Source: Candidatus Berkelbacteria bacterium
GTDB taxonomy: Bacteria > Patescibacteriota > UBA1384 > XYA2-FULL-43-10 > 1-14-0-10-43-13
Direction: 5' to 3'
Length of the DNA: 63,833 bases
Assembly: GCA_037143235.1 (NCBI GenBank)
Contig: JBAWZC010000005.1
Location: 1 to 63,833, forward strand
Part shown: in pieces, positions 49-4,905 of the stretch
Layout of the letters: the number at the start of each line of letters is the position of its first letter
How positions within the stretch are numbered: position 1 is the first letter of the stretch
The notes under the pieces: generated by a model
What the model was told of the DNA's origin: nothing
The model's database searches: none
The model's input: only the letters and a program-made list of their open reading frames with translations
Translations under genes and position numbers: made by a program

Positions 49-184
49 CCACCATAATGTATTTACTTGTTCGGAAGCCGCCTCGCGCGAGCCTTTGGCT
101 CGCGCTTCGGCTGGCAAATTGTAGAGTAAATTGTATTGTTTTTCAAAATTCATTTTCAACTTTCCGTCCAGTAAAATGCGGTTC
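49..184. repeat. IR-L: left copy of a 136-bp inverted repeat (reverse complement of 1700..1835)
   Basis: Direct comparison: 49..184 matches the reverse complement of 1700..1835, apart from the 3-nt palindrome centre and one other mismatch. The mirror ORFs 57..281(+) and 1510..1827(-) give near-identical peptides (MYLLVRKPPRAS...). It contains the perfect palindrome GCGCGAGCC-TTT-GGCTCGCGC at 85..105. Confidence 0.9.
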
Positions 185-3276: not shown

Positions 3277-3503
3277 GTCATTCCTGCGAAGGCAGGAATC
3301 TAGTAATTATTTAGCATTCGGATATGTTCTCCTTGGCGCTTACGCGCCAACAGGATTCCCGCTCATCGAGTCTGAGTCTGAGGGCTCTTCCCTCAGAGTC
3401 GAATGACCTTCGCAGGAATGACAAAAAGAAAGAGGTGAGGAACGAACGACAGAATGTTCTGTCATTGCGAGGAGTCTGCGACGCGGCAATCTATCATTTA
3501 GTC
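3277..3503. repeat. Cluster of GTCATT-type palindromic mini-elements
   Basis: GTCATTCCTGCGAAGGCAGGAATCTAG at 3277..3303. GGATTCCCGCTCATCGAGTCTGAG...CTCAGAGTCGAATGACCTTCGCAGGAATGAC at 3353..3422. GTCATTGCGAGGAGTCTGCGACGCGGCAATCTATCATTTAGTC at 3461..3503 is identical to 43671..43713. Confidence 0.9.
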
Positions 3504-3614
3504 CTGCGGGGATGGCAAAAAGAAAGAGGTCTTGATACCCCTTCGCTCTGTTCGTAAAAACGCTTGACCCCACTTCGCTTCACTTTTGTGAAGCTACGAG
3601 GGGTCTGCGAGCTC

Positions 3615-3645
3615 TTGACAAAATGTAAAGTTTACTTTACATTTT
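3615..3645 (+). promoter_or_regulatory. Promoter (TTGACA-17-TACATT) overlapped by a 26-bp palindromic operator
   Basis: TTGACA at 3615..3620. AAAATGTAAAGT-TT-ACTTTACATTTT at 3620..3645 has perfect 12-bp arms. The putative -10 TACATT is at 3638..3643, and the ATG at 3650 has no SD, so the transcript may be leaderless. Confidence 0.55.
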
Positions 3646-3649
3646 AGTT

Positions 3650-4384
3650 ATGGAAAACATTGAATCACAAATCGAGAACCACCTTCGCGAGGTTAGAAAA
3701 CATCGCAAACTTAGCCAGGAAGACTTGGCTGATGCTTTGGGCATCTCTCGTCAATCAATCATCGCTCTCGAGCAGGGTCGCTCTATGCCATCTCTGCCGT
3801 TGGCTGTTTCGATGTGTAAATATTTCAATACTGCCTTCGAAGACCTTTTCGAATTTGAGCGCGAGATCGAGGAAGAGATTGAGCGATCGTTTTCCGATAA
3901 TAATATAAAAATTATTAATGAGCCGATCACAGGCTCGGGAAAGGAGAAAGAAATGTTGACAATTGAACCGTGGCGACCAATGCGCGAAGCTACATCGCTT
4001 CGAGATGCGATGGATCGTTTGTTTGAAGATAGCGTCATCACTCCGAGTAAATCAGTGGCGATGCCGAAGATCGATATTATGGAAAAAGGCGACCAGATCG
4101 TAGTCAAGGCTGAACTTCCTGGGATGAAAGAGGAAGACATCAGTGTCGAGATCAAAGACAATATTATGACTATTTCTGGCGAGAAGAAAGACGAAGTCGA
4201 GCAAAAGGAAAAAGGCTATTTCTATCGTGAAAGCCATTCTGGTGCTTTTGCCCGAAGTTTTCACTTACCTGCCGAAGTTGTAGCCAGCAAGGCTGACGCT
4301 GAAATGAAGGCTGGTGTTCTCATCATCTCTGTGCCAAAAGTTGAGGAAAAAAAGGCTCAAAAGATCGAGATCAAGAAGAAATAA
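3650..4384 (+). CDS. XRE-family HTH domain fused to an Hsp20/alpha-crystallin small heat-shock domain
   Basis: N-terminus LSQEDLADALGISRQSIIALEQGRSMPSL is a Cro/C1-type HTH. The C-terminus PKIDIMEKGDQIVVKAELPGMKEEDISVEIKDNIMTISGEKK...GAFARSFHLP...GVLIISVPK is an ACD/Hsp20 fold. An internal SD AAGGAG plus an in-frame ATG at 3953 sits at the domain junction. Confidence 0.8.
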   Translation: MENIESQIENHLREVRKHRKLSQEDLADALGISRQSIIALEQGRSMPSLPLAVSMCKYFNTAFEDLFEFEREIEEEIERSFSDNNIKIINEPITGSGKEKEMLTIEPWRPMREATSLRDAMDRLFEDSVITPSKSVAMPKIDIMEKGDQIVVKAELPGMKEEDISVEIKDNIMTISGEKKDEVEQKEKGYFYRESHSGAFARSFHLPAEVVASKADAEMKAGVLIISVPKVEEKKAQKIEIKKK

Positions 4385-4400
4385 GTTCAGTCTCGCAATC

Positions 4401-4439
4401 AAAAAATCCCCATTGTCTCCTGATTGTGGGGATTTTTTT
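4401..4439 (+). terminator. Rho-independent terminator after the HTH-Hsp20 gene
   Basis: AAAAAATCCCCA...TGGGGATTTTTTT hairpin followed by a T-run. Confidence 0.7.
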
Positions 4440-4905
4440 GTAGTTATACGCTTATGTCATTTCCGTCATCTCAATCCCAGATAGCCCTGCACTTTTGTCG
4501 TCTCGACTCCCCGTCCTGCCCGCATTGCTACGCAAAGCGTTGCAGGCGGGAGGGGGCGGAGAGATCTTTTGTGCTAAGAGATCCTTCGATAAACTCAGGA
4601 TGACACTGCGTGTCAGATTTCTCCACGGAGCCTGCCATGAGCGAAGCCGAATGGGGTCGAAATGACAACGGATAATGCCCAATCGCAATGACAATTTGGT
4701 CTGTCGTTTCTATTTTCCCCTCTGCCATTCCCGCCTCTCCTGTCATTCCTGCGTAGGCAGGAATCTAGTGACAATATTAATTTTAAGATACGGTTTGCTA
4801 CGCGCTTACGCTGTAATGGGATTCACGCCTGCGCGGGAATGACAAAATTAGCTTACAAGTCTTTGCACTTACGGGCTTAAACACTTAAACACTTAAACAC
4901 TGTCT
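4440..4905. repeat. Non-coding repeat hotspot (several palindromic element families plus an 8-bp tandem repeat)
   Basis: A 102-bp element at 4742..4843 has GTCATTCCTGCG...CGCGGGAATGAC termini. CCCCGTCCTGCCCGC...GCAGGCGGGAGGGGG palindrome lies at about 4510..4556. CTTAAACA x3 lies at 4876..4901. The only ORFs are repeat-derived. Confidence 0.85.

What the first reader, a model, noticed from the sequence alone, without database searches (positions are those of the whole stretch)
3615..4384. XRE-HTH fused to Hsp20, with a promoter-overlapping perfect palindrome, a likely leaderless start and an internal SD+ATG
One ORF joins a Cro/C1-type HTH (residues about 15-70) to a complete alpha-crystallin domain.

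Its promoter (TTGACA-17-TACATT) is overlapped by a 26-bp palindrome with perfect 12-bp arms (3620..3645), an obvious operator for the HTH. The predicted transcription start coincides with the ATG at 3650, and there is no SD, so the mRNA may be leaderless.

Exactly at the domain junction, a strong SD (AAGGAG) lies 7 nt upstream of the in-frame ATG at 3953. That could yield a free Hsp20 (143 aa) alongside the fusion.

This suggests a self-contained heat or proteotoxic-stress switch. Client binding by the sHSP domain, or mixed oligomers with the free sHSP, could titrate the repressor off its own operator.
Basis: partly seen in the sequence, partly recalled or inferred. Interest (0 to 1): 0.62.

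Follow-up and report, generated by a model that had tools for sequence, protein, structure and literature searches.

The report
Chaperone-fused heat-shock repressor in Berkelbacteria
A DNA-binding repressor domain is fused to a small heat-shock chaperone, and its binding site lies in the promoters of its own gene, dnaK and groES-groEL, so in this class of ultra-small bacteria, which lacks the usual regulator HrcA, it probably both senses protein damage and switches on the heat-shock genes.

Summary
ORF 3650-4384 (244 aa) carries a complete XRE-type HTH and a complete Hsp20 domain. TTGACA-17-TACATT overlaps a perfect 12-2-12 palindrome, the ATG lies 6 nt after the -10, and AAGGAG precedes in-frame ATG 3953.

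The fusion is not a sequencing artefact. More than 120 homologues and about 50 genomic loci (31-78% identity) keep one frame.

The 843-kb genome holds exactly three operator copies, over the promoters of this gene, groES-groEL and dnaK-dnaJ. In relatives it also precedes clpB, clpP and grpE.

Fusion and motif are confined to one class (Berkelbacteria-type by record titles). The motif is in 100 of 121 genomes there and 6 of 284 elsewhere in the phylum. HrcA shows the reverse: 0 of 121 against 252 of 284.

The internal Met has an SD-like motif in 47 of 47 orthologues (background 15%), although the encoded residues differ. The -10-to-ATG distance is exactly 6 nt in 18 of 46.

Best reading: a leaderless, low-yield repressor isoform and an SD-driven free sHSP come from one mRNA, and client binding titrates the repressor off DNA. 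DNA binding, sensing and both isoforms are inferred. I found no published description.

The parts
3566..3605 (+). GC-rich imperfect hairpin just upstream of the promoter. It may be an insulator or terminator for upstream transcription, or one of the local mini-elements.
   Evidence: I1: 18-nt arms, 83% complementary
3615..3620 (+). -35 hexamer TTGACA
   Evidence: The same hexamer sits 3 nt before TGTAAAG at nearly all operator sites in relatives.
3620..3645 (+). Operator: perfect 12-2-12 palindrome AAAATGTAAAGT-tt-ACTTTACATTTT. The conserved core TGTAAAG-N4-CTTTACA is at 3624-3641.
3638..3643 (+). -10 hexamer TACATT, lying inside the right operator arm
3650..4384 (+). Full-length HTH-sHSP gene (244 aa plus stop). 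The ATG lies 6 nt after the -10 with no SD, so the long isoform is probably translated from a leaderless mRNA.
3683..3847 (+). XRE/Cro-C1-type HTH domain (residues 12-66). The recognition-helix residues S33-R34-Q35-S36 are invariant.
   Evidence: HTH_3, E 6.8e-15; CylR2, PbsX-family, DdrOC; pLDDT about 90
3857..3952 (+). Post-HTH helix (residues 70-82, FEFEREIEEEIERSF), then a linker that is variable in length and predicted to be disordered. The linker contains IKIIN at residues 90-94.
3941..3946 (+). Internal Shine-Dalgarno AAGGAG, 6 nt before ATG 3953
   Evidence: SD-like in 47 of 47 orthologues against a 14.6% background. GGAG is kept although the encoded residues differ.
3953..4384 (+). 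Predicted free small heat-shock protein isoform (143 aa) starting at invariant Met102
   Evidence: M102 invariant; stand-alone Chloroflexota sHSPs start at the homologous position with a GGAGG SD
4073..4372 (+). Alpha-crystallin domain (residues 142-241), ending in the C-terminal I-x-I anchoring motif I239-E240-I241
   Evidence: HSP20, E 6.8e-21; Hsp21, Hsp16.9, Hsp16.5
4401..4440 (+). Intrinsic terminator-like hairpin (AAAAAATCCCCA ... TGGGGATTTTTT) with a T-run
   Evidence: I7

Best explanation
The gene encodes the heat-shock repressor of this HrcA-less class of Patescibacteria. The class is Berkelbacteria-type, judging by the record titles of the orthologous loci. The protein is a one-component regulator whose sensor module is a small heat-shock protein.

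Shown here:
- The XRE-HTH and the complete sHSP (N-terminal region, alpha-crystallin domain, C-terminal IxI motif) form one conserved polypeptide.
- A 7-4-7 palindrome, TGTAAAG-N4-CTTTACA, lies in fixed register with a sigma-70-type promoter as TTGACA-aaa-TGTAAAG-N4-CTT-TACAWT. It covers the spacer and the -10.
- This composite promoter occurs exactly three times in the genome: before this gene, before groES-groEL and before dnaK-orf214-dnaJ.
- In relatives it also precedes clpB, clpP and grpE-dnaK.

Inferred:
1. A dimer held together by the alpha-crystallin domains places two HTH domains on the half-sites, whose centres are 11 bp apart. This excludes RNA polymerase.
2. On heat or proteotoxic stress the sHSP part binds unfolding clients, or its oligomer equilibrium shifts. 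The repressor is drawn off the DNA and the regulon is derepressed.
3. The single mRNA gives two products. One is a poorly translated, leaderless full-length repressor. The other is a well translated free 143-aa sHSP from the internal SD-ATG.
4. Free sHSP together with DnaK, GroEL and ClpB clears the clients and returns the repressor to the DNA. That closes a negative feedback loop.
For: Fusion is real
- The 120 best hits all carry HTH_3 plus HSP20.
- About 50 loci hold a single open frame.
- The HTH residues S33, R34, Q35 and S36 and many alpha-crystallin residues are invariant.

Operator and regulon
- The own genome has 3 exact sites and none with 1-2 mismatches.
- The downstream genes are GroES/GroEL and DnaK/DnaJ by Pfam.
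- All 31 relatives have 1-4 sites. The reversed control pattern gives 0.
- In 11 relatives the sites precede the fusion gene, dnaK, groESL, clpB-like, clpP and grpE.

Phyletic pattern
- Motif: 100 of 121 genomes in the class (control 1 of 121), against 6 of 284 outside it.
- Full-length fusion: found only inside the class.
- Family f9 (10 genomes) has no motif and no strong profile match. Its one member examined, G224, has only a stand-alone-length sHSP frame.
- Genomes with the fusion but no exact motif carry 1-3-mismatch operators.
- HrcA: 0 of 121 in the class, against 252 of 284 outside it.
- The own genome has no CIRCE, HAIR or CtsR box.

Two isoforms
- Met102 is invariant within a variable linker.
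- An SD-like motif precedes it in 47 of 47 orthologues (45 strong). Background is 14.6%, and 9.4% at other internal Met codons.
- GGAG is retained while the residues change among KE, GG, RE and TE.
- Stand-alone sHSPs start at the same position.
- The annotated start has an SD in only 9 of 47. The -10-to-ATG distance is exactly 6 nt in 18 of 46.

Structure and precedent
- The AF2 model shows two independently folded domains joined by a disordered linker.
- E. coli IbpA is an sHSP that acts as an aggregate-titrated regulator (bioRxiv 10.1101/2020.04.20.050740; PMC10410725).
Against: - There is no experimental or transcript evidence. Only DNA runs from lake-water metagenomes hold the sequence.
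- That the HTH binds this palindrome rests on co-occurrence, autoregulatory position and palindrome geometry, not on a binding assay.
- The sensing step (client titration versus intrinsic thermosensing versus hetero-oligomer control) is not resolved by any result here.
- About 21 of 46 orthologues have a 14-85-nt leader, often without an SD. Leaderless expression is therefore common but not universal.
- In this genome clpB, clpP and grpE lack the operator, so the regulon is small.
- Family f9 and a few other families in the class have neither HrcA nor the motif. These families therefore appear to use some other control.
Confidence: 0.68

Rival explanations
1. Local autoregulator only. The HTH-sHSP controls just its own gene, and a different, unidentified factor binds the identical sites at dnaK and groESL.
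For: Autoregulation is the commonest role of small XRE repressors. No binding data exist. Every genome encodes other XRE proteins that could in principle recognise the motif.
Against: - The sites at the three promoters are identical in the 14 specified core bases, in register with TTGACA, and in flanks.
- The motif and the fusion appear and disappear together across the phylum.
- The recognition helix and the core half-site are both invariant.
- A second factor with the same specificity and the same phyletic pattern is not parsimonious.
Confidence: 0.08
2. Direct thermosensor. The protein represses the same regulon, but temperature itself releases it from DNA, independently of client proteins. 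The release would come from a heat-driven change in sHSP oligomer or dimer state, or from HTH unfolding, as in RheA of Streptomyces albus. Under this reading the free sHSP isoform is simply the chaperone output.
For: - sHSP oligomers are known to rearrange with temperature (established knowledge; review PMC8155344, listed).
- All oligomerisation elements are intact here: the N-terminal region, the alpha-crystallin domain and the IxI motif.
- The regulon evidence is the same as for the best explanation.
Against: Nothing here separates it from client titration, and the two may act together. An aggregate-titration precedent exists for an sHSP (IbpA). Client binding would also respond to non-thermal proteotoxic stress, which suits a general chaperone regulon.
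Confidence: 0.2
3. The internal SD+ATG is a non-functional relic of the gene fusion. Only the full-length protein is made, and it acts as both repressor and chaperone.
For: The internal start coincides with the ancestral start of stand-alone sHSP genes, so it could be inherited. No protein-level data exist.
Against: A relic should decay in a linker whose length and residues vary freely. Instead Met102 is invariant. A GGAG-type motif is kept in 47 of 47 orthologues down to 31% identity, across changes of the encoded residues. Other internal Met codons show 9%. The true start usually lacks an SD, which fits a deliberately skewed isoform ratio.
Confidence: 0.1
4. Assembly or sequencing artefact. 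Two adjacent genes, an XRE regulator and hsp20, were joined by a lost stop codon or a frameshift.
For: The junction carries a complete SD+ATG, as expected between two genes.
Against: More than 120 independent database proteins and about 50 genomic loci, from many studies and assemblers, have the same single frame with no stop.
Confidence: 0.01

Closest known systems
HrcA / CIRCE with GroEL feedback (class I heat-shock control in Bacillus and many other bacteria)
   Same: A repressor binds an inverted repeat overlapping the sigma-70-type promoters of dnaK and groESL. Its activity is coupled to chaperone availability. In other Patescibacteria hrcA even lies just upstream of hsp20, the position the HTH occupies here.
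   Different: There is no HrcA domain (0 of 121 class genomes) and no CIRCE element. The DNA-binding domain is XRE-type. The chaperone is covalently fused rather than acting in trans. The chaperone is an ATP-independent sHSP, not GroEL.
HspR / HAIR with DnaK as co-repressor (Actinobacteria, Helicobacter, Deinococcus)
   Same: An autoregulated repressor of dnaK, clpB and groESL operons whose DNA binding depends on a chaperone that is titrated by misfolded proteins.
   Different: HspR is MerR-type and recognises HAIR (CTTGAGT-N7-ACTCAAG). No convincing HAIR is found here. The chaperone partner is separate, not fused.
E. coli IbpA as aggregation sensor (bioRxiv 10.1101/2020.04.20.050740; PMC10410725; PMC10474464)
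   Same: An sHSP is itself the regulatory sensor. Free sHSP represses heat-shock gene expression, and sequestration into aggregates relieves the repression.
   Different: IbpA acts post-transcriptionally, by binding the ibpA and rpoH mRNAs, and has no DNA-binding domain. Here an HTH is fused and the control is predicted to be transcriptional, at operators.
RheA repressor of hsp18 in Streptomyces albus (from my own knowledge, not checked here)
   Same: A dedicated, autoregulated repressor of a small heat-shock protein gene that senses temperature directly.
   Different: RheA is a separate protein encoded divergently from hsp18. It controls only hsp18 and itself. It is not an sHSP fusion and does not control dnaK or groESL.
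ClgR, an XRE-family regulator of clp, lon and chaperone genes in Actinobacteria (from my own knowledge, not checked here)
   Same: An XRE-type HTH protein governing protein-quality-control genes through a palindromic site.
   Different: ClgR is an activator, has no chaperone domain, and is itself controlled by proteolysis.
ClpB long and short isoforms from an internal start in E. coli (from my own knowledge, not checked here)
   Same: One chaperone mRNA yields two isoforms through an internal in-frame initiation site. The short form lacks the N-terminal domain and co-assembles with the long form.
   Different: A different protein family. Neither ClpB isoform binds DNA.

Membership tests
Small heat-shock proteins (Hsp20 / alpha-crystallin, PF00011) | Alpha-crystallin domain (beta-sandwich of about 90-100 residues) | tested here: met
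   Pfam HSP20 over residues 142-241, covering profile positions 1-101 of 102, E 6.8e-21. PDB sequence hits to Hsp21, Hsp16.9 and Hsp16.5. The AF2 model shows 7 strands over residues 140-230.
Small heat-shock proteins (Hsp20 / alpha-crystallin, PF00011) | Flanking N-terminal region and C-terminal I/V-x-I/V anchoring motif used for oligomer assembly | tested here: met
   The N-terminal region M102...EPWRPMREATSLRDAMDRLFED aligns with the N-termini of stand-alone sHSPs. I239-E240-I241 is conserved as [IV]-x-[IV] across homologues.
Small heat-shock proteins (Hsp20 / alpha-crystallin, PF00011) | ATP-independent holdase activity and large dynamic oligomers | not testable with these tools
   Needs purified protein: an aggregation-suppression assay plus SEC-MALS or native MS.
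XRE / Cro-C1 HTH regulators (PF01381) | HTH_3 domain of about 55 residues with five helices | tested here: met
   HTH_3 over residues 12-66, covering profile positions 1-55 of 55, E 6.8e-15. Aligns to the whole of CylR2. Five helices in the AF2 model at pLDDT about 90.
XRE / Cro-C1 HTH regulators (PF01381) | Dimeric binding to a palindromic operator, usually overlapping the regulator's own promoter | tested here: inconclusive
   A perfect palindrome with half-site centres 11 bp apart covers the -10 and spacer of the gene's own promoter. It is conserved in 46 of 52 orthologues. Binding itself was not tested.
HrcA/CIRCE system | HrcA protein domain (PF01628) | tested here: not met
   0 of 31 relatives and 0 of 121 class genomes. 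The search is valid: it found HrcA in 7 of 14 control genomes and in 252 of 284 genomes outside the class.
HrcA/CIRCE system | CIRCE element TTAGCACTC-N9-GAGTGCTAA before dnaK and groE | tested here: not met
   Only two 4-mismatch chance matches in the genome, neither at a chaperone gene.
HspR/HAIR system | MerR-type HTH and the HAIR inverted repeat | tested here: not met
   The HTH is XRE-type. Only three 2-mismatch HAIR-like strings were found. None of the three lies at the groES, dnaK or own-gene promoter sites.
HTH-sHSP heat-shock repressor family of Berkelbacteria-type Patescibacteria (unpublished; seen earlier in this scan) | Single ORF with an N-terminal XRE HTH, a variable linker and a full sHSP | tested here: met
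HTH-sHSP heat-shock repressor family of Berkelbacteria-type Patescibacteria (unpublished; seen earlier in this scan) | TTGACA-N3-TGTAAAG-N4-CTTTACA composite promoter-operator before its own gene and before dnaK and groESL | tested here: met
   Three exact sites in the own genome, at exactly these three transcription units.
HTH-sHSP heat-shock repressor family of Berkelbacteria-type Patescibacteria (unpublished; seen earlier in this scan) | Conserved internal SD plus Met at the sHSP N-terminus | tested here: met
   AAGGAG 3941-3946 and ATG 3953. Found in 47 of 47 orthologues.

The most novel reading that the evidence does not exclude
The HTH-sHSP fusion is a previously undescribed class of bacterial master heat-shock transcription factor. 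It displaced HrcA in situ in one class of Patescibacteria, taking the ancestral regulator slot upstream of hsp20. The proteotoxic-stress sensor is the chaperone itself, covalently joined to the DNA-binding domain. Its set-point is fixed by a programmed isoform ratio from one mRNA: a leaderless, scarce repressor and an SD-driven, abundant free sHSP that co-assembles with it or competes with it for clients.
Probability: 0.55. Interest if true: 0.88.

Novelty: new variant of a known kind. Interest (0 to 1): 0.8.

Why it matters
**A possible new heat-shock regulator.** Bacterial heat-shock control is explained by a handful of regulators: sigma-32, HrcA, HspR, CtsR and RheA. This would add one, with a new architecture in which the chaperone-titration feedback is hard-wired by fusing the chaperone to the repressor.

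**It fills a gap.** It would explain how an entire HrcA-less class of ultra-small, uncultivated bacteria regulates dnaK and groESL.

**It is easy to test.** The system has about 250 aa and an 18-bp operator. It can be used to ask whether an sHSP can transduce misfolded-protein load directly into transcription.

**It offers a clean evolutionary and translational example.** It shows non-orthologous regulator displacement. It is also a conserved natural case of two isoforms, set by leaderless versus SD-led initiation on one mRNA.

**It could be used as a tool.** The module might serve as a compact proteotoxic-stress biosensor.

Tried and rejected
**Sequencing or assembly artefact.** Rejected: all homologues are single-frame fusions.

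**Known heat-shock regulators in this genome.** HrcA is absent. No CIRCE, HAIR or CtsR box was found. I did not search for RpoH, CtsR or HspR proteins.

**Weaker operator copies in the own genome.** There are none with 1-2 mismatches. The single 3-mismatch hit (C3:71896) is a different palindrome. The own-genome clpB-like, clpP and grpE genes have no site.

**Transcript evidence.** Only two lake-water DNA runs hold the sequence, and no RNA run could be listed. The transcription start and the isoforms therefore remain unmapped.

**Profile threshold.** E <= 1e-38 for the class survey was too strict: it found 53 of 121 genomes. Genomes scored negative (G418, G365, G405) do carry 201-212-aa fusions behind the motif. 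That count is a lower bound.

**Motif hits outside the class.** There are 6 among 284 genomes. I inspected only G322, where the two sites are not next to chaperone genes and lack the TTGACA register. I treat all six as chance or unrelated.

**Linker motif.** The I-x-I-I-N motif was examined as a possible second groove-binding motif. It is present in close relatives only, so I do not build on it.

**Structure.** The AF2 monomer gives domain boundaries only (pTM 0.33). No multimer or DNA-complex prediction was available. I did not run a fold search because sequence hits already identify both domains.

**Literature.** Five searches for the fusion or a Patescibacteria heat-shock regulator found no description of an HTH-Hsp20 regulator.
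Full report
**1. Observation**

- The ORF at 3650..4384 (+) encodes 244 aa.
- Pfam finds HTH_3 over residues 12-66 (E 6.8e-15, full profile). It finds HSP20 over residues 142-241 (E 6.8e-21, profile positions 1-101 of 102).
- NCBIfam's Hsp18 model aligns from residue 113.
- The promoter scan gives TTGACA (3615-3620), a 17-nt spacer and TACATT (3638-3643).
- The palindrome AAAATGTAAAGT-tt-ACTTTACATTTT (3620-3645) has perfect 12-nt arms. It is unique in the window, against 0 matches in 100 shuffles.
- The ATG at 3650 lies 6 nt after the -10 and has no SD.
- AAGGAG (3941-3946) lies 6 nt before the in-frame ATG 3953, which is Met102.
- A terminator-like hairpin follows at 4401-4438.

**2. The fusion is real and forms a family**

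- The 120 best hits in the 5.8-billion-protein collection are 235-305 aa and 52-77% identical. All carry both HTH_3 and HSP20. Where named, they are called "Hsp20 family protein" of Berkelbacteria or Patescibacteria.
- A scan of species-representative genomes returned about 50 full-length loci down to 31% identity. Each has one open frame.
- In an alignment of 28 homologues the HTH (including S33-R34-Q35-S36 in the recognition helix) and the alpha-crystallin domain are highly conserved. The linker between them varies freely in length and sequence.
- AF2 models two independently folded domains: the HTH at pLDDT about 90 and the alpha-crystallin domain at about 73. They are joined by a helix (residues 70-82) and a disordered stretch (86-115). 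The pTM is 0.33.
- PDB sequence hits are plant, archaeal and bacterial sHSPs for residues 105-240. For residues 8-71 they are CylR2, a PbsX-family regulator and DdrOC.

**3. The palindrome marks a regulon, not just this gene**

- The window's genome is 843 kb in 21 contigs and 96% complete. The core TGTAAAGTnnACTTTACA occurs exactly three times. There are no copies with 1-2 mismatches.
- The other two copies are TTGACAAAATGTAAAGTAGACTTTACAAT and TTGACAAAATGTAAAGTATACTTTACATT.
- The first lies upstream of groES (92 aa, Cpn10) and groEL (542 aa, Cpn60). The second lies upstream of dnaK (631 aa, HSP70), a 214-aa ORF and dnaJ.
- In all three the -35 TTGACA sits 3 nt before the left arm, and the right arm contains the -10 (TACAWT). 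A protein bound there would exclude RNA polymerase.
- In this genome clpB-like, clpP and grpE lack the site.

**4. Comparative support**

- The pattern TGTAAAG-N4-CTTTACA is present 1-4 times in all 31 nearest genomes. The reversed control pattern gives 0.
- I fetched 40 sites from 11 genomes. Nearly all those with a TTGAC -35 in register lie before the fusion gene, dnaK(-dnaJ), groES-groEL, a ClpB-like AAA+ protein, ClpP or grpE-dnaK.
- Upstream of the fusion gene itself the operator is found in 46 of 52 orthologues, counting the window. Near-matches occur in several others.

**5. Phyletic pattern**

| Feature | Inside the window's class | Elsewhere in the phylum |
|---|---|---|
| Operator motif | 100 of 121 (control 1 of 121); 14 of 17 in the phylum sample | 6 of 284 |
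| Full-length fusion | at least 53 of 121 at E <= 1e-38 | none; only the sHSP part matches |
| HrcA (PF01628) | 0 of 121 | 252 of 284 |

- The count of 53 is a lower bound, because three genomes scored negative do have the fusion behind the motif.
- Genomes with the fusion but no exact motif carry 1-3-mismatch operators in the same register.
- Family f9 (10 genomes) has no motif and no strong profile match. Its one member examined, G224, has only a stand-alone-length sHSP frame.
- The own genome has no CIRCE, HAIR or CtsR box.
- In at least ten other Patescibacteria the HrcA hit lies 0.6-1.4 kb upstream of the sHSP hit on the same strand. Examples are G036, G038, G096, G107, G114, G198, G279, G293, G321 and G324.
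- That adjacency suggests an ancestral regulator-hsp20 operon in which an XRE gene replaced hrcA and then fused to hsp20. This is inference.

**6. Two isoforms**

- Met102 is invariant even though the linker around it is not.
- At the DNA level an SD-like motif lies 5-17 nt upstream of this Met in 47 of 47 orthologues, and it is strong in 45. The figure is 14.6% (4.7% strong) at all other codon positions of the same genes, and 9.4% at other internal Met codons.
- GGAG is retained although the residues it encodes change among K-E, G-G, R-E, T-E and N-G-G. That indicates selection on the nucleotides, not on the protein.
- The closest stand-alone sHSPs (Chloroflexota) start M-x(3-5)-RWEPF...SLRDAMDRLFE behind a GGAGG SD. 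That is exactly the homologous position.
- By contrast, the annotated start has an SD-like motif in only 9 of 47 orthologues.
- The distance from the -10 to the ATG is exactly 6 nt in 18 of 46 orthologues and at most 10 nt in 25. This is the geometry of a leaderless mRNA.
- The remaining orthologues have 14-85-nt leaders, mostly without an SD.
- The consistent reading is weak initiation for the long repressor isoform and strong initiation for the free sHSP.
- No RNA or protein data exist for this organism.

**7. Mechanism (inferred)**

1. A dimer formed through the alpha-crystallin domains places two HTH domains on half-sites whose centres are 11 bp apart. It represses the three promoters.
2. 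Stress loads the sHSP moiety with unfolding clients, or shifts its oligomer state, and the repressor leaves the DNA.
3. The derepressed mRNA mainly yields free sHSP. Together with DnaK and GroEL this clears the clients and lets the repressor rebind.

- The nearest experimental precedent for an sHSP as the titrated sensor is E. coli IbpA, which represses translation of the ibpA and rpoH mRNAs (10.1101/2020.04.20.050740; PMC10410725).
- The regulatory logic is that of HrcA-GroEL and HspR-DnaK. Here the chaperone is fused, and neither family's defining features are present.
- A direct-thermosensor variant cannot be excluded.

**8. Novelty**

- Five full-text searches for the fusion or for a Patescibacteria heat-shock regulator found no description of an HTH-Hsp20 regulator. 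A sixth search retrieved the IbpA work.
- Earlier agents of this scan reached the same idea on other genomes. I re-derived the regulon independently for this genome.
- New here: the HrcA complementarity across the phylum, the statistics for the SD and the leaderless spacing, the stand-alone start comparison, and the hrcA-hsp20 adjacency.
- I class it as a new variant of a known kind: a chaperone-feedback heat-shock repressor, or equally a one-component regulator with an unprecedented sensor module.

Noticed in passing
window 49-184 and 1700-1835; 324-1904; 1830-2214: A 136-nt inverted repeat (97% complementary) flanks a 526-aa serine-recombinase-like ORF (324-1904, +; named from its sequence, no domain search run). 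The right arm abuts or overlaps a tmRNA gene (1830-2214, -). This could be an integrated or invertible element at the tmRNA locus.
   Followed up: partly
window 3277-4905 (e.g. 3412-3436 / 3506-3530; 3460-3470 vs 4657-4667 and 4683-4693): Short repeated GTCATT...AATGAC-type mini-elements and a 25-nt direct repeat (GCRGGRATGRCAAAAAGAAAGAGGT) flank the HTH-sHSP gene on both sides. Another first-stage note (e1-4861662) describes them as a genome-wide family.
   Followed up: no
other Patescibacteria genomes, e.g. G036:C2:52866-54309, G293:C1:60299-61754, G321:C1:72633-74093: In at least ten genomes outside the class, hrcA lies 0.6-1.4 kb upstream of an hsp20 gene on the same strand. A regulator-hsp20 operon may therefore be ancestral in the phylum, with the XRE-HTH taking the hrcA position before fusing.
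   Followed up: partly
window 3917-3931 (residues 90-94, IKIIN): The otherwise variable linker of close relatives keeps an I-x-I-I-N motif resembling the sHSP C-terminal IxI groove-binding motif. It exists only in the long isoform and is absent from distant family members.
   Followed up: partly
own genome G000:C3:71890-71920: A different perfect palindrome, GACATTGCAAA-N6-TTTGCAATGTC, was the only 3-mismatch hit to the operator pattern. It may be the site of another regulator.
   Followed up: no
L119 and L122 (G006:C1:2628 and G006:C6:56390): One relative carries two paralogous HTH-sHSP genes, each behind its own operator-promoter.
   Followed up: no
L005 801-1442 (-) = G000:C4: A 214-aa ORF with an N-terminal hydrophobic stretch that looks like a transmembrane helix, and no Pfam match, sits between dnaK and dnaJ inside the regulated operon. 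The position is conserved in several relatives (G001, G008, G010, G013).
   Followed up: partly
L038, L135 (G018:C1:730300-732500), L039, L054: Some family members are shorter (196-222 aa) and have lost part of the linker and N-terminal region, including the internal Met. They would make only the long isoform.
   Followed up: no
class family f9 (G224, G239, G355, G367, G376, G385, G391, G396, G401, G406) and f132, f144: These families of the same class show no HrcA, no operator motif and no strong profile match. Only one member (G224) was looked at more closely, and it has a stand-alone-length sHSP frame. How they control dnaK and groESL is open.
   Followed up: no
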